DNA of 64,000 bases from a virus, in IMG/VR virus record IMGVR_UViG_3300037149_000100; one strand, given 5' to 3'. Below the pieces are notes generated by a model, which made no database searches, was not told the origin of the DNA, and worked only from the letters and a program-made list of their open reading frames with translations. Position numbers and translations under genes: made by a program. Every line of letters begins with the position of its first letter. Position 1 is the first letter of the stretch. Shown in pieces: positions 42,477 through 63,280 of this stretch.

Positions 42477-42477
42477 T

Positions 42478-42849: not shown

Positions 42850-42850
42850 A

Positions 42851-42943: not shown

Positions 42944-42961
42944 GACTTTTTGCATCACCAT

Positions 42962-43038
42962 AGTCTCATCGTCTAGTGGCCAAGGACGCTTGCCTCTCAC
43001 GCAAGAAATCACGGGTTCGACTCCCGTTGGGACTACCA
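42962..43038 (+). tRNA. tRNA-Glu(CTC)
   Basis: Loop CTCTCAC, ACCA. Confidence 0.88.
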
Positions 43039-43153
43039 AAGACTCTAACAGCAATCCAAAATTCCCTGTTAAGGACGAGGTAGTGGGTCCGACTCCCACT
43101 GAGGCAGCACATAGCCTCATAGCTCATCGGTAGAGCGCGTATAAACGAGTCTT
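43039..43153 (+). ncRNA. Circularly permuted tRNA-like RNA
   Basis: AAGACTC/GAGTCTT stem, TAACAGCAA, CTGTTAA, T arm, TGAGGC/GCCTCA acceptor hairpin, D arm. Confidence 0.75.
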
Positions 43154-43159
43154 GACCAT

Positions 43160-43233
43160 GGTCCCATGGTGTAATGGAAACATACCTGCCTGTCACGTAG
43201 GAGAAGCGAGGTCAGTACTCGTTGGGACCGCCA
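43160..43233 (+). tRNA. tRNA-Asp(GTC) with atypical T loop
   Basis: Loop CTGTCAC, T loop GTCAGTA, GCCA. Confidence 0.75.
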
Positions 43234-43284
43234 AAATTCAACTATTGAATCCTCTGTAGCGGGGAGTACGCAGCCCGTTACGGT

Positions 43285-43476
43285 GTGGATGTTCTGGAAG
43301 AACGCTTCGAAGATGGTGAGGCAGCGATCATCAACGACCCCGATCCTCAGTGGGTCGCGTGGTATGACAACCGGTTGTTCTCCAACCTCTACCTAGAGTG
43401 GAATCGGCAACACCCGGAACTCCCTCCCATCGATCCTGATGAGGAGCCAGATGAACCGGATGAACCAGAAGATTAA
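43285..43476 (+). CDS. Small acidic protein
   Basis: RBS GGGGAG; 63-aa ORF. Confidence 0.5.
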   Translation: MDVLEERFEDGEAAIINDPDPQWVAWYDNRLFSNLYLEWNRQHPELPPIDPDEEPDEPDEPED

Positions 43477-43483
43477 AAACCAT

Positions 43484-43569
43484 GCGACTGTACCCGAATT
43501 GGTATAGGGGCCAGCTTGAGGTGCTGGTGGTGCAAGCCATTGTGGGTTCGAGTCCCACCAGTCGTACCA
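43484..43569 (+). tRNA. tRNA-Leu(GAG)
   Basis: Loop TTGAGGT, long variable arm, ACCA. Confidence 0.88.
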
Positions 43570-43865
43570 TTCTGGCACTAACCAGTAGGGCCTGTTCGAT
43601 GGGTTCGAAACCGGAGATCAGTGGCTCAGCTTACTACCCTTTGATGTTTGCTGAGTGAAACCTACTGGGAGTATAAAGCCTTTGCCGCCAACGTAGCGGA
43701 TAATACCGAAAGTATTTTGTGCTCTTTCGGGCCAGATAATCAAAGCCCACGGAAGATGATGGGGTTAAAGTCTCCTTCCACTACCAACATGTGGATGCTC
43801 ATGACGAGCGCCGTGGTGCCAATCGTTACCCCTAGAGTTTTGGAGATTTAGGGGTAACTCAGCCT

Positions 43866-43939
43866 GTGGCTATAGTTCAATGGTAGAACGGAAGATTGTG
43901 ATTCTTCTCATGAGGGTTCGATTCTCTCTAGTCACCCCA
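43866..43939 (+). tRNA. tRNA-His(GTG)
   Basis: Loop TTGTGAT, C73, CCA; position -1 is T. Confidence 0.85.
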
Positions 43940-44048
43940 TTCACTAGACCAGGACAAGGTTGTCCCTTCTCGCCGGAGAGGTCTGAGGTTCGATTCCTCT
44001 TAAAGACGGTCAAGTGGTTCGATTCCACAGTCTAGTGATTCATTCAAT

Positions 44049-44135
44049 GCCCGTAGCGCCACACGGTCGAGGCAGACGCCTGATAAGCGTCCTACGTAAC
44101 AGTTCAAGCAGGTTCGACTCCTGCTGCGGGTACCA
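44049..44135 (+). tRNA. tRNA-Ile(GAT) with long variable region
   Basis: Loop CTGATAA, ACCA. Confidence 0.8.
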
Positions 44136-44436
44136 ATCTTAGGGCGGCGTGGGATATAGACACGCAATCAGGCACTGATCCTGTCTGATACTTGAGGTGC
44201 TAACTGGAGGCGAACGTGAACAAATCCAGGACAACATGTGTGAGTGGCCATACCGCATGTTAGAAGCTGTGGGAGTCATGCCCCATCTCTAAGACTTTTC
44301 TTCGCCAAAACGCAGTATTAGATTGCAGGTAGCAACATCACCTGGAACCGCCCGATCCAACAGTGCCGAATTATAGTAACATTCTGACAAACAATCGGCC
44401 AATCGGGCGAGTTTATTTGACAATCAGTAAATCCAG

Positions 44437-44509
44437 TGCGGGACAGACCGGCCCTAGTTCAGGCCCATAACCTGATACGCAGGAGGTTCAATTCCTCCTC
44501 CCGCTTCCA
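44437..44509 (+). tRNA. tRNA-Met(CAT), initiator-like, C33, weak D arm
   Basis: 1:72 mismatch, loop CCCATAA, TCCA end. Confidence 0.7.
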
Positions 44510-44530
44510 TAATCATTTCAACACTTACAT

Positions 44531-44607
44531 GCCAGCCAAGCCAACTCGGGTGAGGCGCGAGATTCATATCCTCGATACGACCAGTTCGAAACTGGTGGCT
44601 GGTACCA
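44531..44607 (+). tRNA. tRNA-Met/Ile2(CAT)
   Basis: Loop TTCATAT, ACCA. Confidence 0.8.
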
Positions 44608-44609
44608 TT

Positions 44610-44691
44610 GGGTTAGAAGCAGAACGGTGCTGCACCAGCCTCTTAAGCTGGCTCTTCGGACTTGCGGGTTCAAATCCCGTCTAACCCACCA
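44610..44691 (+). tRNA. tRNA-Lys(CTT) with extended variable region
   Basis: Loop CTCTTAA, ACCA. Confidence 0.85.
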
Positions 44692-44791
44692 AAGCAGTAG
44701 CGGTGTTCAGCGGTTCTAGAGCCAATGAAGAATTCGGGGATAAATGCCTCTCCGTCTACAGCCTACCAGGGTTCTAGAACCCTGGTCTTAT

Positions 44792-44869
44792 GGGTCGATA
44801 GCTCAGGTCGGTTAGAGCGAAGGACTGAAAATCCTTAGATCCCTGTTCGAGATCAGGGTCGGCCCACCA
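44792..44869 (+). tRNA. tRNA-Phe(GAA)
   Basis: Loop CTGAAAA, ACCA. Confidence 0.85.
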
Positions 44870-44880
44870 TAAAACAAAAT

Positions 44881-44964
44881 GCTCCTATAGGCGAACTGGT
44901 CTAGCCACTGGATTTAGGTTCCAGGCCCTCGGGCGTCTCGGTTCGACTCCGAGTAGGAGCACCA
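44881..44964 (+). tRNA. tRNA-Leu(TAG)
   Basis: Loop TTTAGGT, variable arm, ACCA. Confidence 0.85.
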
Positions 44965-45000
44965 AAAAGTTGCTACCACACTCTCTAAAGAGGTGGGGCA

Positions 45001-45426
45001 TTGAACATTAAACAAGTCATCAAAGCAATTGGAAGACTCAACGAACGGGTAGCCGTATGGGGCACCAAGTGGTTTGGTTCCATGGTGGTGTTCTACCTGT
45101 TCTTCATCTGGGGCATGTTAGGCTTGATGCCGTTCATTCCCAAGAGCTTCCAAGACATCATCCTACTGGTCAGTTCTGCCTGGATTCAGTTGTGGGCGTT
45201 ACCTCTTTTGGCGGTCGGCACCGCAGTGCTGAATCGCACCTCGGAGGCACGGGCCTCCCAGGACCACGAGACCATCAAGAGCGAGTTCGAAGAAGTGAAG
45301 AACATGCACAAAGAAAATAGTGAGCTTCTCCGACTACTTAACGAGGAGACTGACGCTGACCGAGAGATGGATGCACGGATAAAACGCATCGAAACGATGT
45401 TGCTGGAGCAGAAGCATCAGAAGTAA
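45001..45426 (+). CDS. Membrane protein (DUF1003-like)
   Basis: FGSM..FY.F..W, two TM segments, SSAWIQL.ALPLL.VG, coiled coil. Confidence 0.6.
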   Translation: MNIKQVIKAIGRLNERVAVWGTKWFGSMVVFYLFFIWGMLGLMPFIPKSFQDIILLVSSAWIQLWALPLLAVGTAVLNRTSEARASQDHETIKSEFEEVKNMHKENSELLRLLNEETDADREMDARIKRIETMLLEQKHQK

Positions 45427-45428
45427 AT

Positions 45429-45504
45429 GGGTCCAAGGTGTTGAGGCGTGGCACACTGGTTTCGCACTCCAGAAGATCGAGTTGAACTCTCGATGGATCC
45501 ACCA
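45429..45504 (+). tRNA. tRNA-Ala(CGC)
   Basis: G3:U70, loop TTCGCAC, ACCA. Confidence 0.75.
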
Positions 45505-45539
45505 AATTGACTTTTCAAACCCTTAACTGAGGGGATTCA

Positions 45540-46016
45540 ATGTATCCAAGCCAAGCCACCAGGATGCTCTTTCGGTTGAAAAACCTACGTCTGCTACCTA
45601 AAGAGCTAGCCAGCAGGGCAAATGCCCAATGGCAAAAGCACGGAGACGCAATTTGGGAAGGATGTGGAACCCCAGAGGGCGATGGTATCTCAGCTTGGCT
45701 AGGTGATTTTGATGCCATGGGTGATGCTGATGAAGAGTTTCAGCGCAGTCGTGATATCTTAATGGCTGGAAAAGTATTATATCGAATCAGAGTGCAACAG
45801 AAAGAGATGAATTGGTCTGGGTTCAGTTTCCTCACCTACGGAAGATTCTGTCACTATGTTGGGCCACTCCCTCTGGCCTCACTGGAAAAGGTGCCCCTCG
45901 ATAAGTATGAGGATTGGTATGAGGTCTGTCCCAAGTGTTTGAAAGACACTGAGTTTCCAGATGAAGAAGATGGCTGTAAATGTAACCCTACCCCATTTGA
46001 AGAAGAACATTACTAA
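45540..46016 (+). CDS. Hypothetical protein
   Basis: RBS GAGGGG; C-terminal CPKC. Confidence 0.55.
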   Translation: MYPSQATRMLFRLKNLRLLPKELASRANAQWQKHGDAIWEGCGTPEGDGISAWLGDFDAMGDADEEFQRSRDILMAGKVLYRIRVQQKEMNWSGFSFLTYGRFCHYVGPLPLASLEKVPLDKYEDWYEVCPKCLKDTEFPDEEDGCKCNPTPFEEEHY

Positions 46017-46166
46017 CACCACGTGAGCCCTACCGTGGTAAAACAAAGGGTGGGTGATTGAAACTCGGCTGTCAAGCCAAGCTGCTCAGACATGGCGGAA
46101 CTTTCAATCTCACGGCAGTCCCTAAAACTGCTCAATTCGAGTATTAAACCTTTAGGAGTAGAAAAA

Positions 46167-46577
46167 ATGAAAATTGGTGATATCGTAACACTCAAAACCG
46201 GTGGTCCTCAGATGGGCATCGAATCTCTCTACAGCGCAGAGCCGGTGAATCGTTGGATCTGTGTGTGGTTCAAGGAAGGAATTGGCCATCAGAGGCTGGT
46301 TCATACGGAAGATGAGTTGACTTTGGTTGGAGCGGAAATCAAGGCTGCGGTTGAGACGAAACTGGAAGAGGCCAAGGCAGTGGTCGAGATTGCGGAAACC
46401 AAGGCTGCGGCTGAAGTTGCCAAGGTTGAAGTTCAAGCCAAGGCCGTTGAAGTCAAGGTTGAGGCGGAAGTCGCCAAGGCTGAAGTCCAGGCTGAGGCGG
46501 TTAAAACTGAAGTCGAAACCAAGGTTGAGACTGAAGTTGCCAAGGTTGAACCCAAGGCTCCCAAGGCTCAAAAATAA
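46167..46577 (+). CDS. YodC/DUF2158-like domain plus Ala/Glu/Lys/Val-rich repeat
   Basis: KIGDIVTLKTGGPQM...CVWF; EVAKVEV repeats. Confidence 0.7.
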   Translation: MKIGDIVTLKTGGPQMGIESLYSAEPVNRWICVWFKEGIGHQRLVHTEDELTLVGAEIKAAVETKLEEAKAVVEIAETKAAAEVAKVEVQAKAVEVKVEAEVAKAEVQAEAVKTEVETKVETEVAKVEPKAPKAQK

Positions 46578-46665
46578 TAAAAATTGTTGGACACCCTGGT
46601 TGCAAATACAGGGCGAATGTGATAGGGCGGTATCTATAAGTCGTGCCCTGTCCAACATCCATCAG

Positions 46666-46739
46666 TGCGGAGTAGCTCAGTGAAAGAGCACCGGGCTTAG
46701 TTCCGGAGGTCGGTGGTTCAAGTCCATCCTCCGCAACCA
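46666..46739 (+). tRNA. tRNA with fMet-like body and a non-canonical 6-nt anticodon loop
   Basis: CCGGG-CTTAGT-TCCGG; normal D and T arms; ACCA. Confidence 0.65.
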
Positions 46740-46796
46740 ATGCGTAACAGCCCCAGGTAGTGGGGGAGCCGGTTCTTAGCGCAACACCGGTATCAT

Positions 46797-46864
46797 ACGA
46801 CACGCACAGGGTGCAGATTGGACTCCAAATCCGATCTTGCGGAGTTCGAGCCTCCGGTGTCGTG
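46797..46864 (+). tRNA. tRNA-Trp(CCA) with minimal D arm
   Basis: Loop CTCCAAA; no encoded CCA. Confidence 0.7.
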
Positions 46865-46870
46865 CATAAA

Positions 46871-46950
46871 GGGGCATAGGGCTACTTGGGGTGGCCGCTT
46901 CCATGGCATGGAAGATATTCAGACGAGTTCAATTCTCGTATGCTCCACCA
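46871..46950 (+). tRNA. tRNA-Ala(GGC)
   Basis: G3:U70, loop ATGGCAT, ACCA. Confidence 0.8.
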
Positions 46951-47060
46951 TTTCAACACTTAAGACACACACAGCATTCAAATGGATAACGCCTTCGGGC
47001 CATTTGGTTCAAACCCAAAAATGCATCTTGATTTTCTGTTCCAAGGTTAGAGGTGCTTGC

Positions 47061-47795
47061 ATGAGATTCCTAACCTTAATCACTCTTTTGTTTTGCCTAG
47101 CCTTTCCAATGAGGGCTCAATCAGATCCGGATTGGCTGTCCGTATACGGACTCGGCAACAGCACCTCCACTCTCAGCAGCACCTCTAGCCCCTCTGGGGA
47201 TTCAATCCAAACTCACGGAGCTGGATGGGCCGCTCAGATTCAATGGAAGGAAGGTTGGAATCCTGATCAGGCTATTCAATGGCCCTTCTTCGAGTTCCGC
47301 TCTTATGCTCAAGGGCTCAACTCCACCACCGCAAATTGGGAAAGCTGGAGCATTGGTGATCGTTTCTACCCCAATTGGAATGCGTTAAAATACGAAAAGA
47401 TTCGAATCGGATTCGTCGGAGCGGTAGGCCGTTTAGTTGGAACCAACACCGTTCAGGCCACAACTTCTACAGCCGGTGGGGTCACTACCACAACTACTGC
47501 AACTTCCTCAAATTCAGTTTATGGGGGACAAGGGCGGGTAGCTCTCCGAATGGATCGAATTGAACGTAACGACCCAGCGAGTGGAAGCTGGGCTGAGTTT
47601 GGTATGATGTGGGATCCAATCATCGGTGAGGACAACGTATATCTTACGGGTCATTACATCATCTTCGGGCGTAAGAACCTTCAGGTATTTCTTGAACCCA
47701 CAACCAATTTCCATATGGGAAGTGGTGCAAAACAGAAAGATCAATTCAGTTTGTATTACGGAGTGAAGTTCAGTCTAGGTTCTTTGCTTCAATAA
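47061..47795 (+). CDS. Secreted, probable outer-membrane beta-rich protein
   Basis: Signal peptide; alternating aromatic strands ending YYGVKF. Confidence 0.6.
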   Translation: MRFLTLITLLFCLAFPMRAQSDPDWLSVYGLGNSTSTLSSTSSPSGDSIQTHGAGWAAQIQWKEGWNPDQAIQWPFFEFRSYAQGLNSTTANWESWSIGDRFYPNWNALKYEKIRIGFVGAVGRLVGTNTVQATTSTAGGVTTTTTATSSNSVYGGQGRVALRMDRIERNDPASGSWAEFGMMWDPIIGEDNVYLTGHYIIFGRKNLQVFLEPTTNFHMGSGAKQKDQFSLYYGVKFSLGSLLQ

Positions 47796-47799
47796 CTAA

Positions 47800-47879
47800 G
47801 GGGATGTAGCTCAGTCTGGTTCCAGAGCGTCAGGCCGTTAACCTGAAGCGCATCGGTTCAAATCCGATCATCCTCGCCA
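47800..47879 (+). tRNA. tRNA-Asn(GTT), C33 variant
   Basis: Loop CCGTTAA, GCCA. Confidence 0.8.
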
Positions 47880-47883
47880 GTAT

Positions 47884-47961
47884 TCCCTCTTAGCTCAGTC
47901 TGGTAGATGCGCGAAGCTGTTAACTTCGATGTCGTCCGTTCAAATCGGACAGGGGGTGCCA
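47884..47961 (+). tRNA. tRNA-Asn(GTT)
   Basis: Loop CTGTTAA, GCCA. Confidence 0.8.
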
Positions 47962-47963
47962 AT

Positions 47964-48048
47964 CGGAATGTGGGTCAGGGGTTGACCACCTGTTTTGGGT
48001 ACAGGGCTGTAATGGCACACGCAGGTTCGAATCCTGTCATTCCGACCA
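47964..48048 (+). tRNA. tRNA-Pro(TGG) with long variable region
   Basis: CGG start, loop TTTGGGT, ACCA. Confidence 0.85.
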
Positions 48049-48175
48049 TAGACCCCACGTGAGCCTCACCGTGGTTAAATAAGAGGATGATGGACTTGGC
48101 AGAATTAACGTTTCACCAGCTTGCAATGGAGATTCTGTCAAGCGGCCCCTCGTCTCGTTCAATGCGAGACACTAT

Positions 48176-48249
48176 GCCGCTTTAGTATATTGGTATTACT
48201 CATCTTTGGTAAGGATGTGAAACCGGTTCGATTCCGGTAAGCGGCTCCA
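48176..48249 (+). tRNA. tRNA-Thr(GGT)
   Basis: Loop TTGGTAA, TCCA. Confidence 0.85.
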
Positions 48250-48252
48250 GTC

Positions 48253-48320
48253 TATCTAGTAACTCAACAGAACAGAGTCCCCGGTGGTAACCAAGAGGGG
48301 TTCGATTCCCCAGCTATGCA
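48253..48320 (+). pseudogene. Degenerate tRNA-like sequence
   Basis: D arm ACTC/GAGT and T arm GGGG-TTCGATT-CCCC; acceptor and anticodon stems poor. Confidence 0.45.
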
Positions 48321-48381
48321 GGAATGAGCCTTGGTGAGGTGTGGGGAGATGAGGAATCGACACCCTCTTAGATAGACCTTA

Positions 48382-48452
48382 CGGAGTGTAAGTGAGCGGT
48401 TTACGGCAGTCCTCGGACGACTGAGACGGGAGTTCGACTCTCCCCACTCCGA
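48382..48452 (+). tRNA. tRNA-Pro(CGG)
   Basis: Loop CTCGGAC; weak D arm; no CCA. Confidence 0.7.
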
Positions 48453-48475
48453 CATTTTTCGACTACGCTGACCAA

Positions 48476-48549
48476 CGGTAGGTAGCATAAGTGGTAATGC
48501 GCCCCTCTGATCAAGGGAAATGGTGTCCCGAAAGCATCCCTACCGGCCA
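48476..48549 (+). tRNA. Atypical tRNA with GAT anticodon
   Basis: Acceptor CGGTAGG/CCTACCG, loop CTGATCA, T loop CCCGAAA, GCCA. Confidence 0.55.
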
Positions 48550-48664
48550 ATTTCGAGTAATAAGCTATATGACCCTTCTGTGGAGAGCAACAATGCTTTG
48601 GGATTGACCTGACACACCTTTTGATTACGATATGCGGCGGCGTACCGTATCACAAGGAGAACCT

Positions 48665-48913
48665 ATGTCAAAACCACGCACAAGACTCTTCAATCACACC
48701 GTTCCTCTCGTAACGGTTCAAGGCACAGACGTTAGTCTGAAGCCTGATCTCCTCCTCGTAATCGAGGGTGGTCGGATCCGAACCGCTCGAAGAAACCCGG
48801 TTGCCCCAATCAACCGCATCATCAGTCTGCTAGGAGATCTTCTGGAAGAACTGAAGGATGACAGGTACGCGGAAGAAATAAGAAAGAGTGGCAAGACTCT
48901 GAAGAAAAAATAA
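48665..48913 (+). CDS. Hypothetical protein
   Basis: RBS AAGGAG. Confidence 0.55.
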   Translation: MSKPRTRLFNHTVPLVTVQGTDVSLKPDLLLVIEGGRIRTARRNPVAPINRIISLLGDLLEELKDDRYAEEIRKSGKTLKKK

Positions 48914-48975
48914 GTTCAGGGTGGAAGCGAGTAAGTGTTGGCCCGAGCAAACTTTAACCAAAGTCGGGCCTCATA

Positions 48976-49052
48976 CGGTGCGTAGCACAGTCTGGGAGCG
49001 CACATCCTTGGGGTGGATGAGGTCGGAGGTTCAAATCCTCTCGCACCGACCA
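48976..49052 (+). tRNA. tRNA-Pro(GGG)
   Basis: Loop TTGGGGT, ACCA. Confidence 0.88.
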
Positions 49053-49196
49053 ACTTCTGAACTCTAACATAGAGGTCAGGATGAGAGGTTTTCTGAAAAT
49101 ACTCAGGACTCTGAAGAAGCATGAGATGGGTAAGGAAGCAATTCGCTCCTTATCTCCGAAGCCCTGAATGAGCCCTGGCCGTTGGGTGAGAAGCTG

Positions 49197-49559
49197 ATGT
49201 GTGGACTGGACATCACGAAGAAAGAGTTCCCTTACATCAGACGGAACATCAAAGGATACCTGGATTACATTTATCCGAGTGGTAATTACCCTGAGATATT
49301 CAATCGAATCTTCAGACCATGCAGCGTATGTGGGAAAGAAGATATATGTTTCATATATCGGAACGAGTTATTCTGCTCTGAGAAGTGTGAGAATCAGGCT
49401 GAATATTTCAAAATTGCTGAAATGATTGAAACGTATGCTCCAGCGATGTCAGAGAAGCGAAAGAAGTGGGTTCAGGGCCTACTGTTTCGAAACGCGATGC
49501 TGGAGAATTGGACGGATGAACAATACAAAGAGTTCATCCAGGAATATGAACACAAATAA
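49197..49559 (+). CDS. Zn-finger hypothetical protein
   Basis: CSVCG...FCSEKC. Confidence 0.5.
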   Translation: MCGLDITKKEFPYIRRNIKGYLDYIYPSGNYPEIFNRIFRPCSVCGKEDICFIYRNELFCSEKCENQAEYFKIAEMIETYAPAMSEKRKKWVQGLLFRNAMLENWTDEQYKEFIQEYEHK

Positions 49560-49563
49560 TAAT

Positions 49564-49647
49564 TGGGATGTCGCATAACGGTATTGCAGCAGATTCTGAT
49601 TCTGCCGTCGAAAGACACTCTAGGTTCGAATCCTAGCATCCCATCCA
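49564..49647 (+). tRNA. tRNA-Gln(CTG) with extra variable arm
   Basis: TGG start, loop TTCTGAT, GTC-GAAA-GAC arm, TCCA. Confidence 0.85.
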
Positions 49648-49671
49648 ATCAGAATTGAGTATCATACATAT

Positions 49672-49760
49672 GGAAGGTCGCCGGAGTCGGAGAGCCGGAA
49701 CAGCCTGGAAAGCTGTGGGCGTTATGCGTCCAGAGGGTTCGATTCCCTTACCTTCCGCCA
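49672..49760 (+). tRNA. tRNA-Ser(GGA)
   Basis: Loop CTGGAAA, long variable arm, GCCA. Confidence 0.85.
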
Positions 49761-49775
49761 TTTTAAGGAGGCCCC

Positions 49776-50141
49776 ATGGCCACGAAGTTAAAAACAATTG
49801 ATGACTTGAAAGCCGACAGGGCAGTCGTTAAGGCAGAGCTAGACAAGATTGATGAGCAAATCACTGAGCGTCTGAAGAAGACGCTGGTTCAGTGTACTGA
49901 CAATAATCATGGCAAAGGTTGCGGCATGGGAATGGAGATCGGTCAACTCGAATACATCCAGACCCACTGGTACACCCGACCTTCGGGTTGTATGGATGGG
50001 GACTACTGGACTCCGGGGGATGGTGAGTTTATTTGTCCTCATTGCACTCATCGGAATCGGCTGTATGACCGGCCTGAAATCGAGAAGCTGAGGTGCTTAT
50101 TTAAAAGTGTGAAGGATGAGTATGACAAGCAAACGTTTTGA
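49776..50141 (+). CDS. Zn-binding phage protein
   Basis: RBS AAGGAGG; QTHWY..P.GC..GDYW...CPHC. Confidence 0.6.
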   Translation: MATKLKTIDDLKADRAVVKAELDKIDEQITERLKKTLVQCTDNNHGKGCGMGMEIGQLEYIQTHWYTRPSGCMDGDYWTPGDGEFICPHCTHRNRLYDRPEIEKLRCLFKSVKDEYDKQTF

Positions 50142-50316
50142 CTCTCAGAGAGCTTTCCGGGTCGGTTTCAAAGGGGACTACCCTATGTGGACCGTAGAGG
50201 CTGCATCAGCAGAGGATGCGATCAGACAGATTGTTAAGTCAAGTAATTCAGACGGACTAAACAATTTAAGAGAAGAAGACTTGGAAGCTAAGTAATACAC
50301 ATATAGGAGGTGTCCC

Positions 50317-50977
50317 GTGGACATCATGGTAGAAATAAGAGCCGCTGAGGGAGGGGAAGATGCTGTCCTCCTCGTGCGGGATCAACTGAAGGCATATCTT
50401 CGTCGTGTGGAGCGGAGGGGACTTTAGTGCAGAATTATTGGAAGTGACGACTGGGTTTGCATCCTTCCTCGTTAGAGGTGAGGGAGCGGAGGAGTTCTTC
50501 AACGAAACTGGGGGTCATCGGTGGCAACATGTGAGTCCCACCGATAAAAACAAACGTGTTCACACCTCCACTGTTACGGTTGCAGCTTTAGCGATGCGAG
50601 CTACCTCGACCCACATGAACCCCAACGATGTGGAAATACAAACCACCAGAGGCTCTGGCCCAGGTGGGCAGAACCGAAACAAAGTGGAGAGTTGTGTCCT
50701 GGCGATTCACAAGCCAACCGGACTTTCGGTGCGGATTGATGGTCGGTCTCAATTGAATAATAAGAGGATGGCATTGCAAATCCTAGCCACCAAGCTGGAA
50801 GACCAGCACACCGAGCAGGAACAGAAACGGGTCAGCAGGGATCGCAAGGATCAAGTCGGCACCGGCCAGCGTGGCGATAAAATCCGTACCTATAGGGTCA
50901 GAGACAACATCGTCATTGACCATCGAACTGGTCAGAAATACCAGCTTTCTCGCTGGCTAGACGGAGTGAGAGAGTAA
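50317..50977 (+). CDS. Class-I release-factor-like protein (GGQ), join 50317-50424 and 50426-50977 through a +1 frameshift
   Basis: Frame 0 encodes VEIRAAEGGEDA; GGAGG-GGA-CTT-TAG site; +1 frame encodes ETGGHR, VHTS, GPGGQ, KIRTY. Confidence 0.85.
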
Positions 50978-50984
50978 GTAGTAA

Positions 50985-51056
50985 GCGGGTGTAGTTCAGT
51001 GGTAGAACGTTAGCTTCCCAAGCTAGATGTCGTGGGTTCAAGCCCCATCACCCGCT
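50985..51056 (+). tRNA. tRNA-Gly(CCC)
   Basis: GCG start, loop TTCCCAA, U73; no encoded CCA. Confidence 0.88.
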
Positions 51057-51670
51057 CAAATATGTAATTGTTGCAGTTTCTTGATGAAGTTCAGAAGCCT
51101 CTGAAGGACTTGCTCTTTTTGCTCTGCGGTTAATTTGGATGCTTCATCATTAAGCATCTGATCGGTGATATCCGTATCCCCACCGGTTTGAGCCAAGCAA
51201 AGCCAGAAGAATGCATCCGGCGCACTCTGCACCACTCCCGTGCCGGTCGCATACATCACGCCCAGGCACCCCATTGAGTAAGCCTCTCCCTGCTCTGCTG
51301 CGGCACTGAACCATTGGACTGATTGCAGAAGGTCCACCGGCCCTCCAAGCCCTAGGAACAGCATTGCCCCCAGCTTAGCCTGGGCCTCCATCTGGCCCTT
51401 CTGAGCGGCTCTGAGGAGCCACTGACGAGCTTCCGGAAGATTCTTCTCTACCTCCGAACCCAACAACAGCATGACCCCCAACTGAGCCATACTGTCTGCA
51501 TTGCCAGTCTTGGCCTGCTTTAGAGCTTCGGCTAGCCTCGCTGCCTTGACATCCTTTTCGACTGGAATTTGCTGTAAGGTAACATACGGTTGCGGGGTAG
51601 TGGGTGTGGCAGACTGACCGGCCCATAGGGATGCGGCGATAGTAAACGAGATGAGCCATTTGAGATTCAT
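51056..51670 (-). CDS. Secreted Sel1-repeat protein
   Basis: RBS AAGGAG; signal peptide; AQLG..L.G..V.K...A.QW...AAQKG repeats. Confidence 0.85.
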   Translation of the reverse strand: MNLKWLISFTIAASLWAGQSATPTTPQPYVTLQQIPVEKDVKAARLAEALKQAKTGNADSMAQLGVMLLLGSEVEKNLPEARQWLLRAAQKGQMEAQAKLGAMLFLGLGGPVDLLQSVQWFSAAAEQGEAYSMGCLGVMYATGTGVVQSAPDAFFWLCLAQTGGDTDITDQMLNDEASKLTAEQKEQVLQRLLNFIKKLQQLHI

Positions 51671-51771
51671 GTTGGTCTCCTTGGGGAGGTTTCTCAAGTA
51701 ACCCATAGTTAGTATTTTCTCAGCACAAAGCAATCTTTGCATTTCAGAGTATTATACTCACAGGAGCTAAC

Positions 51772-52272
51772 ATGTCTAAATCGGATACAATCGAACTGCT
51801 CAAGACCGCCAAGGCGGTTCGTATTGGCTACATAGGCGCGGATAGTGCGGTCTATCTGACCCCGGAATTCGCTGCCCAATTGGCCGAAGCGTTGGAGACA
51901 CCCGAACCCATAACCACTGAAACCAAGGGAACGCAGGAATTCCTGGACTACCTAGAGGCCAAGAGTCTGGGCCGGACGGTTGGCAAACCAGTTTGTTGCC
52001 AAACCTATACCGCCCAGTCTTAAGAGGTAACAATGAGTTGGTTTAGTCATAAGGAACCGGATCAGGTTATGCTGGTTATGCACGATGGGGCACATGTTCT
52101 GGTTGCTTCAGAATGGTTTTGCGATTTACTCTACGCCTCCCCGTATGGCCCTGGAACAGATCTGGGACGATGCGAACTTCTGGTCGGTGGAGCTGTGGAT
52201 GGGGTGAGCTATGTGAAGGGATGGAAGCCAGCTTCCCCAAACACTGAAGTTTATTACTGCCGTCTTATTTAA
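51772..52272 (+). other. Two small hypothetical genes (51772-52023, 52033-52272)
   Basis: GAGTATTA motif and RBSs. Confidence 0.55.
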
Positions 52273-52276
52273 CAAT

Positions 52277-52355
52277 GGTCTCGTAGCTTAGCCTTGGACA
52301 AAGCACCCCTCTCCTAAAGGGGAGACCGTGGATTCAAATTCCACCGAGACCACCA
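52277..52355 (+). tRNA. tRNA-Arg(CCT)
   Basis: Loop CTCCTAA, ACCA. Confidence 0.85.
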
Positions 52356-53128: not shown

Positions 53129-54118
53129 ATGCTAGTGAATAGCGACAAAGACGATATCAGCGAAGTCATCGGGACGGATATGAACAAGAATATGCTCAAA
53201 AGACCCCATAGGGAAGAGGTGAATGACTCTCCTGAAGGAGAGAAGAAGGACAAGCCGGTCGATGTGTCCAGTTGGGCCAACAGCGGCGTCACCTTCTTTG
53301 GTGTGGCAAAGACCTTTGCCACCCTACCCCCCAACTGCTATGAACCCAATATGAGTCAGCAAGGCCCCTACCTGGAAGAGATTCCGCTCAAGACGGACAA
53401 CCTGCTGGTGCTGCCGGATGATGCATCGAACGAGATCATCTCGGACTTTGCTGAGTTCTGGACGCTGAAGCCGCAATTCCAGGCCCGTGGGTTCCTCCAC
53501 AAGCGGGGCATTCTGATGTGGGGGCCTCCCGGTTCCGGCAAGACCAGCACTGTCCAGCAGATCATTCAGAAGGTCATCCATGACCTGGGTGGTATCGTGC
53601 TGATGGTCCAGAATCCCAGTGTGGCCGTGGAGTGCCTGAAGATGGTTCGAAAGATCGAACCTGATCGTCCTATCATCACCGTCATGGAGGATCTGGACAG
53701 CCTGATCTCCAAGTACGATGAATCTGGGTTCCTCTCTATGCTGGACGGCGAAGCTCAGGTGGACAACATTCTCAGCCTCGCCACCACCAACTATCCGGAG
53801 CGGCTAGACCCTCGCTTCATCGACCGGCCCAGCCGCTTCGATGTGGTCCGGAAGATCGACTACCCGTCCGATGAGGCCAGGGAGTTCTACCTGCGCCACA
53901 AGGAGCCCAGCCTGACCGAAGAGGAATTGGCTGCCTGGGTCGGTATGTCAAAGGGCCTGACCATTCCCCATCTGAAGGAAATGATCATCAGTGTCAAGTG
54001 CTACAACCGTGACCTGGATGAAACGGTCAAGCGTCTGAAGAAGATGCACACGAAGAAGTTCAAGGACGGCCAGGGTCTGGGCTTTGCTAGTGCGGAAGAC
54101 AAGACAGCATCACGTTAG
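53129..54118 (+). CDS. AAA ATPase
   Basis: KRGILMWGPPGSGKT, MEDLD, ATTNYPERLD..F.DRPSRFD. Confidence 0.9.
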   Translation: MLVNSDKDDISEVIGTDMNKNMLKRPHREEVNDSPEGEKKDKPVDVSSWANSGVTFFGVAKTFATLPPNCYEPNMSQQGPYLEEIPLKTDNLLVLPDDASNEIISDFAEFWTLKPQFQARGFLHKRGILMWGPPGSGKTSTVQQIIQKVIHDLGGIVLMVQNPSVAVECLKMVRKIEPDRPIITVMEDLDSLISKYDESGFLSMLDGEAQVDNILSLATTNYPERLDPRFIDRPSRFDVVRKIDYPSDEAREFYLRHKEPSLTEEELAAWVGMSKGLTIPHLKEMIISVKCYNRDLDETVKRLKKMHTKKFKDGQGLGFASAEDKTASR

Positions 54119-54124
54119 GGTAGT

Positions 54125-54598
54125 ATGCGAGAGATCATCAAATATACACCAGAAATGGCAGCAGAAGTGCGTCAGAGTCTACAGGAGTGCATTGCCCAAT
54201 TCGTGGGCTCCAGGATAACTCCAATGACTCTGACGACTCTTGAAGCTATGATCAAACAAAATGTTGAGAGGGTGTGGGATCCAGTCAAGCACTATGGCCA
54301 GCACGTAAATCTCAAGATCGAATGTGATCCGGACGACCCATCAAAGGTGCTCATATCCCCGAAGGATATGTACACGACAGTGATTCTTACCGGACAGTTT
54401 GATCGGTCGTATGATGAGATTCTGTTCCTCACCAAAGTGGTTGAGGACTATGAACATCACACCACATACGAATATGAGAACCCTGCTGGGCGCTACCTGT
54501 TCACGGTGTACCATCTCAAGATCATGGATCGTCTGACCGGAGAGGTGTATATCCTACATGAACCTGAGTCTTGGTTCTTCCCCGTGGAGATCAAATGA
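54125..54598 (+). CDS. Hypothetical protein
   Basis: 157-aa ORF following the AAA gene. Confidence 0.55.
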   Translation: MREIIKYTPEMAAEVRQSLQECIAQFVGSRITPMTLTTLEAMIKQNVERVWDPVKHYGQHVNLKIECDPDDPSKVLISPKDMYTTVILTGQFDRSYDEILFLTKVVEDYEHHTTYEYENPAGRYLFTVYHLKIMDRLTGEVYILHEPESWFFPVEIK

Positions 54599-60712: not shown

Positions 60713-61019
60713 AAGATTCCTTCATCCGATACCGGTGTCCTTAATTGGATGCCGGTATTAGTTTTGAAAGGAGAAGAATTGTGAGAGTCAAGAGCATGAA
60801 TCTCCCCGTTCCCCGCCGTATTCATCCGATGATTCGCAAGCATATGAAGCGGGTCTCTGATTGGCTCCGCAAGGTAGGCTACCGGGCCTACCATTTTGAA
60901 AAGCGGGTCAACCGATATTCCTGAATAGAAGTTTTCGAAAGTTTCTGTCTACAGATTCCCCAAGCAGAGAGTATTACATCATATGGATAAGTTCACGTAG
61001 ATTTTCTTATCAGGACCAA

Positions 61020-61093
61020 GCAGCCGTAATTCATCGGTAGAATGGTTTGCTCTAACCAGACTTAGGCGGGTTCGACTCCTGTCGGCTGCACCA
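61020..61093 (+). tRNA. Amber-suppressor tRNA (anticodon CTA)
   Basis: GCAGCCG/CGGCTGC acceptor, ATTC/GAAT D stem, GTTTG-CTCTAAC-CAGAC, TTCGACT T loop, ACCA. Confidence 0.85.
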
Positions 61094-61205
61094 TTGTATC
61101 AAAATTCCAAGGAGGACTCGATGTCTTAGACTCGCCCACCCTAACCTGTGGTATGCCCCACTGAACCAAATCGCATCAAGCCATTTCGTCATAAGGAGAC
61201 ATATC

Positions 61206-61874
61206 ATGGCAACCATCATCGACATCAACGAAACCAAACAGCCTCATGCCCCCCGGTTCACTGAAGAACAGAAAGAAGCGTGGCAGAAGGCGAAAGCCCT
61301 TCTCAAGAGCGGAATGACCAACACCCGTGCGCTTCACATCGCCATGTCCGAACTCCGCAAAGAGAACGGTCGGAAGCACAAGGGTCCAATCGAGACTGAG
61401 CCCAAGCGTGACGGCAAGCTGACCGAATATAAGGCTAAGCTGGTGAGCAGCCAGATGGCCGCACGGGTCGCCCAGTGGAAGGCTTATCTCCGTGATCCTG
61501 GGAGCCAGAAGCTCTTCATCATCGTCCGGAACGACCTCGAAACTTCCCAGAAGGCAGTGCAGGCCAGCCATGCGGCTGCGGAATTTTCCAAGCGCCACCC
61601 CCTCGCCCCTTGGGTCAACGGAACGATGGTCCTGCTGATCCCCGATCAGACCAGTCAGACCTTCCAGCGTTACCTGGAGGCCCCACACAGGCCAGTCAGC
61701 CCCACTTACCAGCATGATCCTTTCGAGGCATTTTGCCATGACCGCTTCTGGCCGTTCGAGTTCCAGACCGAATGGAGGGAGCCGGATCAGGGTAACCGCA
61801 TCACCGCTGTGGCCGTCCTCTCCTGCTTCAACAATGAACTTTGCAGCAAGCAGCATGGAGTGAAGCTCCTCTAA
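61206..61874 (+). CDS. Peptidyl-tRNA hydrolase 2 (Pth2)-like protein with N-terminal extension
   Basis: KLFIIVRNDL...KAVQASHA...W.N..MVLL...EPD....TAVA. Confidence 0.7.
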   Translation: MATIIDINETKQPHAPRFTEEQKEAWQKAKALLKSGMTNTRALHIAMSELRKENGRKHKGPIETEPKRDGKLTEYKAKLVSSQMAARVAQWKAYLRDPGSQKLFIIVRNDLETSQKAVQASHAAAEFSKRHPLAPWVNGTMVLLIPDQTSQTFQRYLEAPHRPVSPTYQHDPFEAFCHDRFWPFEFQTEWREPDQGNRITAVAVLSCFNNELCSKQHGVKLL

Positions 61875-61891
61875 TCTGCGTGAATCAACTG

Positions 61892-61916
61892 AGCCCCGCT
61901 TCGGCGGGGCCTTTTT
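61892..61916 (+). terminator. Rho-independent terminator
   Basis: GCCCCGC-TTCG-GCGGGGC followed by T run. Confidence 0.8.
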
Positions 61917-61939
61917 GTGGGTATTAGTTAGGGTGAGGT

Positions 61940-63280
61940 ATGAAGATGCAGAAGCTACGCAGAATGGATGCACGGTTGGAAGTAGATGTGACGGATGGTC
62001 AGCCTGACATAGAGGTTCTAAGAGAAATGGCCCAACGGCTGGCGATTAACCTACTCTGTGAGGATGACACAACATGCGCGGGTGTAGGGAGTGACAAATA
62101 CTGCATAACCTATAACATCCGACATTACGATGTCCCAGATGGGACTCCTATATTCAATGTGGATGAGGCAGCAGACCATCTTGAACTTACAACTCCTCCA
62201 ATCATTCAGCGAGTAGAAGTTCCAACTCCAGTCCCATCCCTTTCTTTTTGGGACTTCCTAGCAGGTAGGAGATAAAATGATGATAACAGCTTACAAAAAT
62301 TCAGGACACGCTCTAGTCGAAGATGCCTTAGCAATCATTTTGATAACTCTTATTCTTGCGTGGACTTGGGGGCTATGAGTATGCGAATCGTCAGTGCGGC
62401 TGTGTGTTATCAAGGTGTGATCTTCAGTCTTCCGGCCCCGAATCGGCACCATCATATCCTTCATGCAATGTATCAGATGGGGCTGCCTAACAGTAGCCAT
62501 AGGGAGCAGGGATTCCTTACGGATGAGGGGCACTACATTGATCGACTCGGAGCATTGGAGGTCGCTCAGGCTGCTGACCAGATCATTTCAAATGAGACGA
62601 CCTGGGTTCCTGCCATAGGTTTGTTTACGGAGGATTTATGGTAACAGCCCCACCCTGCCCACTCTGCCAGCAGCCTCTAAAGCGAGTCACTCAAGGCCCA
62701 TATTCCCCTCTGAACAGCGATCAATTTGATGCGGTGAAGGCGGGGGATTGGTTCTGCGAGTGTAGCAGTAACAGTAGGGGTCATGCCCCCTACGCCTACT
62801 TTTGGAGCAGGGAAGTAATTGTCATAGCTCCCGACTATCAGATTTAAGTTAAGGGAGGGTTTATGGACAACCCACATTTCACCTCAGATGATGTTCGTCG
62901 CCGCTTAGCTACGATCCGAGAAGACTTGGATCATGCTTACAAGATTGGAGCCAGGATTGCATCCCACGAACTTAGAGGGTATGAGCAAGCCCTCCAATGG
63001 GTATTAAGTTGCATGGAGAGTAAAGATGTTCCTACAGATCCCGAGGCGAATGGTAGGTAACTACTACGTTTGGCAAACCAGCACTTACGGCCAGGAGTTT
63101 CTGGACGGGTCGGCTCCGGCTGACATATACAAGATGAGACCGATGCCCTGCACCCCTGCGGGTGACTTGCAGGCCAGCTTCGGCACAGCCCTGGAAGCTG
63201 ACCTGATGCTTTCCGCCCTAGAGAAGCTAAGTGATGAGGACAGGGAGATTGCATTCCAAATTTCCCGTACGGGTAGATAA
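61940..63280 (+). other. Run of small hypothetical genes (61940-62275, 62375-62644, 62638-62847, 62863-63060, 63050-63280)
   Basis: Co-oriented ORFs; one carries QGFLT..G.YIDR...LFTEDLW. Confidence 0.55.

What the first reader, a model, noticed from the sequence alone, without database searches (positions are those of the whole stretch)
60969..61916. Amber-suppressor tRNA beside a Pth2-like gene: a possible UAG-control circuit in a standard-code phage
Seen: a canonical tRNA with CTA anticodon and CCA end lies outside the main array, behind a promoter motif and followed by a Pth2-like gene and terminator. TAG still ends normal genes (3195, 16521, 27610, 54118). Inference: together with the UAG-gated release factor, host RF1, the suppressor and the frameshift would compete at one codon; in-frame readthrough there gives only a short dead-end product. 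This could be a timed readthrough/termination switch or an early stage of amber reassignment.
Basis: partly seen in the sequence, partly recalled or inferred. Interest (0 to 1): 0.82.

Follow-up and report, generated by a model that had tools for sequence, protein, structure and literature searches.

The report
Readthrough-gated hydrolase beside amber-suppressor tRNA
A jumbo phage that uses the normal genetic code carries a UAG-reading tRNA, and the enzyme gene next to it (a peptidyl-tRNA-hydrolase look-alike) appears to be translated only when a tiny leader's UAG stop is read through; the layout recurs in many distant phages and gives "orphan" phage suppressor tRNAs a testable purpose.

Summary
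A canonical tRNA(CUA) with encoded CCA lies at 61020-61093, 8.7 kb outside the main tRNA array. It sits 44 nt behind an over-represented GAGTAWTA motif. A 222-aa gene follows; its C-terminal half has the Pth2 fold (Z 10.6). A strong terminator closes the unit. TAG still ends real genes.

Between tRNA and gene lies a leader, SD-AUG-UCU-UAG-ACU-CGC-CCA-CCC-UAA. A hairpin that pairs the gene's SD and AUG starts 2 nt after the UAA. I found a tRNA(CUA) in every locus with enough flank, and the leader plus hairpin in 24 of 25 loci. These belong to two subfamilies about 35% identical. The leader always ends in Pro-stop, mostly [R/K]-x-P.

Single-domain phage PTH2 genes instead carry the stop at codons 2-9, including mycobacteriophage Alice. 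In one locus the internal stop is UGA and the neighbouring tRNA is UCA.

Best reading: the hydrolase is made only while UAG is read through. Its substrate is unknown.

The link to the phage release factor is not conserved, and no TAG recoding is seen. Peat and permafrost RNA libraries hold contigs spanning leader and gene.

This scan found the same design earlier on other DNA. I found no publication describing it. Nothing here is experimental.

The parts
60969..60976 (+). GAGTATTA, one copy of the over-represented GAGTAWTA motif (putative phage promoter element), 44 nt upstream of the tRNA
   Evidence: 23 copies in the window against 1.5 expected; 19 on the + strand. No sigma-70 consensus was found here. 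Promoter function is inferred.
61020..61093 (+). tRNA(CUA), an amber-suppressor-type class I tRNA. Anticodon 61052-61054, A73, encoded CCA 61091-61093.
   Evidence: ARAGORN; Rfam tRNA 47.8 bits. Orthologues in 6 diverged loci keep the cloverleaf through compensatory acceptor-stem changes, with invariant CUCUAA loop, A73 and CCA.
61109..61115 (+). Shine-Dalgarno AAGGAGG of the leader ORF, 5 nt before its AUG
   Evidence: Sequence. A strong SD precedes the leader in 24 of 25 loci of subfamilies 1 and 2.
61121..61144 (+). Leader ORF: ATG TCT TAG(61127-61129) ACT CGC CCA CCC TAA(61142-61144), giving M-S-[UAG]-T-R-P-P-stop
   Evidence: Of the 25 loci of subfamilies 1 and 2 whose upstream region could be read, 24 hold such a leader, and all 24 end in Pro-stop. 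The TAG-to-second-stop distance is 15, 18 or 21 nt. It is the only such mini-ORF in the 106-kb record and in a 213-kb relative.
61146..61209 (+). Hairpin. The 5' arm (61146-61158) starts 2 nt after the leader's TAA. It pairs with the gene's SD core (G61195, G61196) and start codon (61206-61208).
   Evidence: MFE fold -15.7 kcal/mol with the listed pairs. Across 24 loci the spacer folds with mean z -3.14, against -0.51 for 74 control 5' regions, Mann-Whitney p 3e-10. Flanking pairs change type between loci.
61206..61874 (+). 222-aa protein: conserved helical N-domain (about residues 1-99) plus a diverged Pth2-fold domain (100-222); ends TAA
   Evidence: 71 homologues; alignment A1; AF2 pLDDT 88; Pth2 structures Z 9.6-10.6. 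Homology to Pfam-positive phage PTH2 proteins is shown by tblastn and hhalign. RNA-library contigs cover it.
61893..61917 (+). Intrinsic terminator (GCCCCGC-TTCG-GCGGGGC followed by CTTTTTGTG)
   Evidence: Contigs from the RNA libraries end at 61846-61882, and none covers 61883-62400.

Best explanation
The stretch is one transcription unit: putative promoter, tRNA(CUA), an 8-codon leader, a hairpin, the Pth2-fold gene and a terminator. The tRNA is cut out and acts as an amber suppressor.

A ribosome on the leader meets UAG as its third codon. If RF1 wins, the ribosome leaves. Its footprint ends before the hairpin, so the gene's SD and AUG stay paired and the gene stays off.

If the tRNA reads UAG, the ribosome goes four codons further to Arg-Pro-Pro-UAA, a slow-termination, arrest-like ending. 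With UAA in the A site the ribosome covers the hairpin's 5' arm, frees the SD and AUG, and the 222-aa protein is translated. Its synthesis therefore reports how much UAG is being read through.

The protein is a diverged member of the phage PTH2 clade. I commit to it hydrolysing the ester bond of peptidyl-tRNA or N-blocked aminoacyl-tRNA that builds up when stops are overridden, such as short drop-off products and stalled readthrough ribosomes. That would keep the suppressor and other tRNAs recycled, made on demand.

What is shown in sequence: all the parts and their conservation. What is inferred: the stall, the unmasking and the enzyme's substrate.
For: 1. A real tRNA under selection.
2. Linkage. 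Subfamily 1 (about 200-220 aa): tRNA(CUA) lies 45-430 nt upstream on the same strand in every locus with enough flank, at 43-100% protein identity. Subfamily 2 (about 185 aa): tRNA(CUA) lies 16-307 nt downstream in 6 of 6 loci with enough flank. It is often the only tRNA within several kb.
3. Leader. SD-AUG, 1-8 codons, UAG, 4-6 codons ending in Pro, then a stop, in 16 of 17 subfamily-1 loci and 8 of 8 subfamily-2 loci. Pro codons vary synonymously. The motif is unique in 106 kb and in 213 kb.
4. Hairpin. It starts at or just after the second stop and pairs the SD and/or AUG. Folding z is -3.1 against -0.5 in controls, p 3e-10.
5. Independent convergence. Single-domain, Pfam-positive phage PTH2 genes (26-35 bits) put the stop inside the ORF at codons 2-9, before the conserved first strand, in 12 lineages. 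It is TAG in 10, TGA where the neighbouring tRNA is UCA, and TAA where it is UUA. Cultured mycobacteriophage Alice has gp150 'peptidyl-tRNA hydrolase' followed 250 nt later by an annotated tRNA-suppressor(cta).
6. Pth2 fold.
7. RNA. Contigs from 4 peat or permafrost RNA libraries (4 studies) run from 61093-61147 to 61846-61882, that is from the tRNA 3' end to the terminator, with no cover on either side.
Against: - Nothing is experimental. Charging of the tRNA, the inserted amino acid, the stall and the enzyme activity are all untested.
- The predicted pairing probability of the SD alone does not differ from other genes (0.74 against 0.61-0.65). Only overall stability and the position of the stem are distinctive.
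- RNAalifold on MAFFT alignments found no consensus structure. The pair table rests on per-sequence MFE folds.
- The 24 loci are not phylogenetically independent.
- The window protein misses Pfam's PTH2 cut-off. The Lys that I recall as catalytic in archaeal Pth2 aligns with an invariant Ser-Gln.
- From my own knowledge, canonical Pth2 is harmless when expressed in bacteria. Tight gating of a mere recycling enzyme is therefore odd and favours the feedback rival.
- One relative (L011) lacks the UAG leader.
- TAG ends 21% of this phage's long ORFs with no excess of back-up stops, so a strong suppressor should be costly.
- The contigs in RNA libraries could in principle come from DNA carry-over.
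Confidence: 0.5

Rival explanations
1. Governor (negative feedback). The parts and the gate are the same, but the Pth2-like protein lowers UAG readthrough. It might deacylate or hydrolyse the suppressor's own aminoacyl- or peptidyl-tRNA, or release chains from ribosomes waiting at UAG. The module would then hold suppression at a low set point that a standard-code phage can afford.
For: Known translation-factor loops sense on their own mRNA the activity that the product controls, for example prfB and IF3 (own knowledge). Elaborate gating, kept by two different mechanisms, suggests that ungated expression is costly or that proportional control matters. TAG ends 20-21% of genes in this phage and in G002, so suppression must stay limited. 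The active-site region differs from canonical Pth2, with S-Q in place of G-K, which allows for an altered substrate.
Against: Single-domain forms of about 100 aa have no obvious means of recognising a CUA anticodon. An unspecific aminoacyl-tRNA deacylase would be toxic. No Pth2-fold enzyme is known to act on free-amino aminoacyl-tRNA or on ribosome-bound chains (own knowledge).
Confidence: 0.25
2. The suppressor, host RF1 and the phage release factor's CUU-UAG +1 frameshift site compete at one codon, forming a timed termination/readthrough switch or an early step toward TAG reassignment. The Pth2-like gene is an accessory.
For: This phage does encode a truncated release factor. Its N-terminal segment ends GGAGG-GGA-CUU-UAG-U, and the GGQ part follows in the +1 frame.
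Against: No RF-1 domain was found in 5 related virus records that keep the tRNA, leader and gene, one of them 95% complete. No in-frame TAGs or TAG avoidance were seen in 106 kb here or in 213 kb of a relative. This reading does not explain the leader or the hairpin.
Confidence: 0.08
3. The leader senses general termination or proline-translation capacity (RF1 level, EF-P state) rather than the phage tRNA. The tRNA sits next to the gene only because tRNA-related genes cluster.
For: Pro-Pro-stop endings respond to EF-P and release-factor supply (own knowledge). UAG readthrough depends on RF1 as well as on the suppressor.
Against: The suppressor is the nearest, and often the only, tRNA next to the gene in dozens of diverged loci. 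The internal stop type follows the neighbouring anticodon: UGA with UCA, and TAA with UUA. Without a suppressor, UAG readthrough would be near zero and the gene permanently off.
Confidence: 0.1
4. Chance neighbourhood. The mini-ORF and the stem are fortuitous, or the stem serves only in tRNA 3' processing.
For: Any SD-rich spacer folds in silico. SD pairing probability is not distinctive.
Against: 24 of 25 loci hold the leader. Its frame is fixed, it always ends in Pro-stop, and it is unique in each genome. Folding z differs from controls at p 3e-10. Subfamily 2 keeps the leader although its tRNA lies downstream of the gene.
Confidence: 0.03

Closest known systems
Arrest-peptide leaders that unmask a downstream SD (SecM-secA, ErmCL-ermC, and the RAPP/RGPP class ApdA, ApdP, ApcA; PMC7897499, PMC10951233, PMC12992588)
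   Same: A short upstream ORF with its own SD. A conserved C-terminal Arg/Lys-x-Pro ending. A hairpin that sequesters the next gene's SD and AUG and begins where a stalled ribosome would sit.
   Different: The input here is readthrough of a stop codon placed before the arrest motif, not secretion, an antibiotic or a metabolite. [quoted passage not shown] The nascent chain is only 7-15 residues long. A stall has not been shown.
prfB (RF2) autoregulation through an in-frame UGA
   Same: An early in-frame stop codon on an mRNA of the translation apparatus acts as a sensor of how that stop is being decoded.
   Different: prfB uses a +1 frameshift and senses its own product. Here the escape is in-frame suppression by a co-encoded tRNA, and the regulated product is a hydrolase-fold protein whose effect on UAG decoding is unknown.
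Stop-codon-recoded phages with suppressor tRNAs (TAG read as Gln, 'code 15': crAss-like, Lak; PMC9523058, PMC10879173)
   Same: A phage-encoded tRNA(CUA), and the idea that in-frame stops delay expression until the suppressor is active.
   Different: This phage and a 95%-complete relative use TAG as an ordinary stop. The only gated reading frame I found is the leader of the gene next to the tRNA.
Orphan amber suppressor tRNAs and PTH2 genes of jumbo phages (XacN1, PMC5852040; Iyer et al. 2021, PMC7824862)
   Same: Standard-code jumbo phages with tRNA(CUA), and with archaeo-eukaryotic-type PTH2 genes.
   Different: The XacN1 authors found no target for the suppressors. Iyer et al. discuss PTH2 without mentioning suppressors. 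Here the two are linked physically and by a stop-codon gate.
Archaeal/eukaryotic peptidyl-tRNA hydrolase Pth2 (PF01981; 1xty, 1q7s, 3erj, 2zv3)
   Same: The fold of residues 100-222 (Z 9.6-10.6); the Q-x-x-H-A-A helix; an acidic residue in the E-P-D strand.
   Different: Below the Pfam cut-off. A two-residue shorter loop with S-Q where I recall G-K. An extra conserved helical N-domain of about 100 aa with no fold match.

Membership tests
Pth2 peptidyl-tRNA hydrolase (Pfam PF01981) | Sequence match to the family profile above its curated cut-off (23 bits) | tested here: not met
   The window protein scores 12.5-13.1 bits, E 0.11-0.18, over residues 102-130 only. A profile of 41 homologues finds no PDB Pth2 by sequence.
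Pth2 peptidyl-tRNA hydrolase (Pfam PF01981) | Pth2 alpha/beta fold | tested here: met
   AF2 model, pLDDT 88. 1q7s Z 10.6 (rmsd 2.4, 96 aligned), 1xty Z 10.2, 3erj 9.9, 1wn2 9.7, 1rlk 9.6, 2zv3 9.6. The next unrelated fold scores Z 3.0. Foldseek probability 0.9-1.0.
Pth2 peptidyl-tRNA hydrolase (Pfam PF01981) | Homology chain to proteins that pass the profile | tested here: met
   tblastn links residues 100-222 to single-domain phage proteins at E 1e-6 to 1e-11. Those proteins score 26-35 bits on PF01981 over the whole profile. Subfamilies 1 and 2 align at hhalign probability 99.7%.
Pth2 peptidyl-tRNA hydrolase (Pfam PF01981) | Catalytic residues (Lys and Asp of S. solfataricus Pth2, as I recall them) and esterase activity | tested here: inconclusive
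   Invariant Q119, H122, E192 and D194 fit the Q..HAA helix and the D-x-G strand. The Lys position aligns with an invariant S-Q. This alignment was made by eye against a motif recalled from memory. Activity cannot be tested here.
Amber suppressor tRNA | Canonical cloverleaf with a CUA anticodon in a 7-nt loop | tested here: met
   7-bp acceptor stem, 4-bp D stem, 5-bp anticodon stem, 5-bp T stem, TTCGA T-loop.
Amber suppressor tRNA | Maintained by selection as a tRNA (compensatory changes in relatives) | tested here: met
   Seven orthologues have different acceptor stems that all pair. CUCUAA, A73 and CCA are invariant.
Amber suppressor tRNA | Is aminoacylated and decodes UAG during elongation | not testable with these tools
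   Indirect evidence only: the reading frame after the leader's UAG is conserved (15, 18 or 21 nt, always ending Pro-stop). The amino acid is unknown. No paralogue exceeds 67% identity. A73 and G1-C72 do not fit the tRNA-Gln features I recall.
Arrest-peptide translational attenuator (SecM/ErmCL/RAPP type) | Short upstream ORF with its own SD and a conserved C-terminal motif | tested here: met
   24 of 25 loci. Endings are RPP, RSP, RAP, RGP, KPP, GPP, SPP, SSP or NSP followed by a stop.
Arrest-peptide translational attenuator (SecM/ErmCL/RAPP type) | Hairpin masking the downstream SD or AUG, overlapped by the stalled ribosome | tested here: met
   Partners of the SD or AUG lie -5 to +18 nt from the second stop. 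Stability z is -3.14 against -0.51 in controls. This is in silico only.
Arrest-peptide translational attenuator (SecM/ErmCL/RAPP type) | [quoted passage not shown] | tested here: inconclusive
   Here a stop codon occupies the place of the last Pro codon. The published mechanism concerns peptide-bond formation. No stalling data exist for this leader.
Stop-codon-recoded (code 15) phage | In-frame TAG in conserved genes, and TAG not used as a terminator | tested here: not met
   Reading TAG as sense gives no more gain in coding coverage than the other stops do. TAG ends 21 of 101 long ORFs here and 37 of 187 in G002. The Volactin, methylase and AAA genes end at TAG. Only 37% of this genome is in hand.

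The most novel reading that the evidence does not exclude
The tRNA, leader and hydrolase form a self-contained feedback controller of stop-codon readthrough. It would be a natural 'governed suppressor' that lets standard-code phages run a set, partial level of amber suppression, and it could have served as the stepping stone to full TAG recoding. The Pth2-fold protein would be the actuator that acts back on UAG decoding. This would explain why phages from mycobacteriophages to Lak megaphages keep orphan suppressor tRNAs.
Probability: 0.25. Interest if true: 0.9.

Novelty: new variant of a known kind. Interest (0 to 1): 0.78.

Why it matters
- Amber-suppressor tRNAs in phages that use the standard code have had no known target (XacN1). 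PTH2 genes of jumbo phages have been explained only in general terms.
- Here each gives the other a concrete role. The one frame that demonstrably needs UAG readthrough is the switch for the gene next to the tRNA.
- If the model holds, it is a natural sensor of nonsense suppression, built from an arrest-like leader. That is a new input for a known regulatory principle and a ready-made part for genetic-code engineering.
- It is directly testable. The same pairing exists in cultured mycobacteriophages of the Bixzunavirus group, and the leader is small enough for reporter work in E. coli.
- It may also bear on how phages tolerate, tune or evolve toward stop-codon reassignment.

Tried and rejected
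- RNAalifold on MAFFT alignments of the spacer gave only 4 pairs (subfamily 2) or none (subfamily 1), because the arms are out of register. I used per-sequence folds with controls instead.
- Pairing probability of the SD does not discriminate (0.74 against 0.61-0.65 in other genes), so I dropped it as evidence.
- N-terminal domain (residues 1-100): the AF2 model is poor (pLDDT 70, pTM 0.37, three helices). Foldseek against PDB gave nothing below E 4.9. The protein atlas gave no usable hit. hhalign does not align the N-domains of subfamilies 1 and 2. A shared H-[IV]-A-x-x-x-[LA]-R-G motif is seen by eye only.
- A weak Pfam UPF0181 hit (16.9 bits, below cut-off) was ignored.
- No theta or HDV-like ribozyme or other Rfam family lies between tRNA and gene.
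- tRNA identity by paralogy failed: the best match is 66-67%.
- Search for TAG readthrough targets: no excess of long in-frame extensions after TAG and no excess of back-up stops.
- RAS14/CM1 and L049-type homologues, which have a different long N-domain, have neither an early stop nor a nearby suppressor.
- LR756502 and LR756504 keep the early TAG but have no tRNA within 2.5 kb.
- The RNA-library contigs do not cover the tRNA itself or the flanks. That absence is not evidence of anything.
- Literature searches for a published link between suppressor tRNA and Pth2 returned nothing. Borges et al. 2022 is not in the library and could not be checked.
Full report
**Setting.** The window is the minus strand of bases 9024-73023 of a 106,154-bp IMG/VR virus record that CheckV rates 37% complete. 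An identical copy of the protein studied here lies on a 313-kb contig, so this is a jumbo phage. Related contigs come from peat, permafrost, lake and soil metagenomes.

**Checking the observation.**
- ARAGORN finds 29 tRNAs. Twenty-eight lie at 40411-52355 and one lies at 61020-61093, with anticodon CTA.
- Searched alone, that one scores 47.8 bits on Rfam's tRNA model, end to end. The whole-window run did not list it.
- It has a 7-bp acceptor stem, a normal D arm with GG, the loop CUCUAAC, a 4-nt variable loop, a TTCGA T-loop, A73 and an encoded CCA.
- No sigma-70-like promoter precedes it. GAGTATTA at 60969-60976 is one of 23 copies of GAGTAWTA, against 1.5 expected, and 19 are on the coding strand.
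- The ORF 61206-61874 falls below Pfam's PTH2 cut-off.
- An AlphaFold model built on 41 homologues (pLDDT 88) matches six Pth2 structures over residues 100-222 at Z 9.6-10.6. Unrelated folds score Z 3 or less.
- The terminator at 61893-61910 is strong.
- TAG ends a Volactin-like actin gene, a DNA methylase gene and an AAA ATPase gene, each with a full or near-full profile match.

**The pair is conserved.**
- The protein has 71 homologues of 160-240 aa, all without annotation.
- In all 8 IMG/VR loci that encode one (43-100% identity), a tRNA(CUA) lies 45-158 nt upstream on the same strand. The same holds in the metagenome loci with enough flank and in 5 further contigs.
- A second subfamily of about 185 aa shares the C-domain (hhalign probability 99.7%, 37% identity). 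Its tRNA(CUA) lies 16-307 nt downstream.
- The tRNAs differ in stem sequence but always pair, and they keep A73 and CCA.
- Often the suppressor is the only tRNA within several kb, so array clustering does not explain the link.

**The part that was missed.**
- Between tRNA and gene lies AAGGAGG, then 5 nt, then ATG TCT TAG ACT CGC CCA CCC TAA (61109-61144).
- An equivalent mini-ORF occurs in 16 of 17 subfamily-1 loci and 8 of 8 subfamily-2 loci. It has a strong SD, ATG, 1-8 codons, TAG, then 4-6 codons that always end in Pro before TGA, TAA or, in one locus, TAG.
- Most endings are [R/K]-x-P: RPP, RSP, RAP, RGP or KPP.
- Pro codons vary among CCA, CCC, CCT and CCG. The distance from TAG to the second stop is 15, 18 or 21 nt.
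- A scan of both strands of the 106-kb record and of a 213-kb relative finds this pattern exactly once in each, in front of this gene.
- The conserved frame after the UAG is the best available sign that the UAG is really read through by an aminoacylated tRNA.

**The hairpin.**
- From 2 nt after the leader's TAA, 61146-61158 pairs with 61195-61209. That region holds two G's of the SD and the AUG of the 222-aa gene.
- In the other loci, too, the SD or AUG pairs with sequence lying -5 to +18 nt from the second stop. In many subfamily-1 loci the Pro codon and stop (CCAUGA) pair directly with the start (UCAUGG).
- Positions flanking the SD change pair type between loci.
- The spacers fold with mean z -3.14 (n = 24). 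For 72-nt 5' regions of 74 other SD-bearing genes in the two genomes the mean is -0.51 (Mann-Whitney p 3e-10).
- SD pairing probability by itself is not distinctive, and alignment-based consensus folding failed.
- Geometry: a ribosome with UAG in the A site should protect to about 61139-61144, short of the stem. With UAA in the A site it should protect to about 61154-61157, covering most of the 5' arm. The footprint sizes come from my general knowledge.

**Convergent evidence from the wider family.**
- Proteins of about 100 aa that match residues 100-222 pass Pfam's PTH2 cut-off (26-35 bits).
- In 12 lineages their ORF begins ATG, then 0-8 codons, then an in-frame stop, then ATT, ATA or GTN, then the conserved first strand K-L-x-V-[IV]-T-R-x-D-L. 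In at least six of them no ATG, GTG or TTG lies between the stop and that strand.
- The stop is TAG in ten lineages, most with a tRNA(CUA) nearby.
- It is TGA in L048, where the tRNA 56 nt upstream has anticodon UCA.
- It is TAA in Lak-B4, where the nearest tRNA has UUA. That case is ambiguous, because an ATG follows five codons later.
- In cultured mycobacteriophage Alice, gp150 'peptidyl-tRNA hydrolase' is preceded in frame by ATG TAG and followed 250 nt later by an annotated tRNA-suppressor(cta). The annotated GTG start directly follows that TAG, so this case too is ambiguous. 204 Mycobacterium phages hold this gene.
- Two different mechanisms thus make synthesis of a PTH2-clade protein depend on suppression.

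- The phage release factor at 50318-50977 does have GGAGG-GGA-CUU-UAG-U, with the GGQ domain in the +1 frame.
- However, no RF-1 domain exists in five related virus records that keep the module, one of them 95% complete.
- Neither this record nor that relative shows TAG recoding. Coverage by long ORFs rises no more with TAG as sense than with TGA or TAA. TAG ends 20-21% of long ORFs. Back-up stops after TAG are not enriched.

**Expression.**
- Seventeen metatranscriptome runs hold part of the stretch.
- In four runs from four studies, contigs run from 61093, 61117, 61119 or 61147 to 61846-61882. That is from the last base of the tRNA's CCA, or shortly after it, to just before the terminator. 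No contig covers 60722-61092 or 61883-62400.
- Contigs cannot give strand, level or true ends, and DNA carry-over is possible. The gene-bounded cover fits a processed tRNA-mRNA co-transcript.

**Function.**
- The gate is well supported. The enzyme's job is not.
- Invariant Q119, H122, E192-P-D194, N197 and T200 fit the Pth2 active-site region as I recall it. The loop is two residues shorter, and S-Q stands where archaeal Pth2 has G-K.
- I commit to on-demand hydrolysis of peptidyl-tRNA or N-blocked aminoacyl-tRNA that arises when stops are overridden.
- The main rival is a negative-feedback governor of suppression. It has the better regulatory precedent but lacks a plausible route to substrate specificity in the 100-aa forms.

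**Prior knowledge.**
- Papers note suppressor tRNAs without targets in XacN1, an opal suppressor and Pth genes in Atu_ph07, and PTH2 in jumbo phages.
- None of my searches found the link or the leader described.
- This scan has reported the same design on other DNA many times: 70 notes in at least 53 genomes. One was later re-checked at 85/100 for the observation and 20/100 for the bold reading.
- Those notes supplied the comparison with RAPP/RGPP arrest peptides, which I checked against PMC10951233.
- What this window adds:
  - a form in which only the leader, not the gene, holds the UAG;
  - a structure control;
  - cover in RNA libraries;
  - the finding that the release factor is not part of the conserved unit.

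Noticed in passing
window 50318-50977: Truncated phage release factor lacking domain 1. Frame 0 ends GGAGG-GGA-CTT-TAG-T, and the PCRF/RF-1 (GGQ) part continues in +1. The codon-recognition tripeptide reads S-P-T, between RF2's SPF and RF1's PxT. In-frame readthrough gives 16 codons and then TAG. It is absent from 5 related virus records.
   Followed up: partly
window 53129-54598: The AAA ATPase gene ends in TAG (54116-54118). Two codons later, in the same frame, a 157-aa ORF without a Pfam match starts at 54125. Amber readthrough would fuse the two, making this a candidate natural target of the suppressor.
   Followed up: partly
window 40411-52355: Many tRNAs of the main array have unusual ARAGORN lengths for their type (Arg 87, Ile 87, Lys 82, Gln 84, Pro 85 nt), and one has a 2-base 'anticodon' (46666-46739). 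Six ARAGORN calls are missing from the Rfam gathering list, and Rfam adds one at 40756-40816. Other notes of the scan describe permuted tRNA-like genes here.
   Followed up: no
window, 23 sites (e.g. 5322, 7279, 25224, 36826, 58594, 60969): GAGTAWTA is 15-fold over-represented and strand-biased (19 of 23 on +). In relatives it lies either before the tRNA or between the tRNA and the leader (L024, L026, L062). It is a likely phage-specific promoter element.
   Followed up: partly
L011:4926-5021: The one subfamily-1 relative without a UAG leader. An anti-SD stretch TCCTCCTT lies 4 nt after the tRNA's CCA and is complementary to the gene's SD, so the SD may be masked until the tRNA is processed.
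   Followed up: no
L023:287-310 and L065:1412-1438: In the closest subclade the leader's own SD (GGAGGC) is complementary to its Ser-Pro-Pro codons (GCCTCC). This is a second small hairpin that could make leader initiation self-limiting.
   Followed up: no
G000:C1:82838 (+), outside the window: A second leader-like mini-ORF with an internal TAA: SD-ATG, M-Q-R-[TAA]-P-A-P-P-TAA. It is the only other stop-interrupted mini-ORF ending in Pro in the record.
   Followed up: no
L077 (mycobacteriophage Alice NC_028986.1, 91710-92412): gp150 'peptidyl-tRNA hydrolase' is annotated from a GTG that directly follows an in-frame ATG TAG. An annotated tRNA-suppressor(cta) lies 250 nt downstream. This is a cultured system in which the pairing can be tested.
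   Followed up: partly
window 2110-3195: A phage gene with a full-length match to Pfam Volactin (162 bits). It ends in TAG.
   Followed up: no
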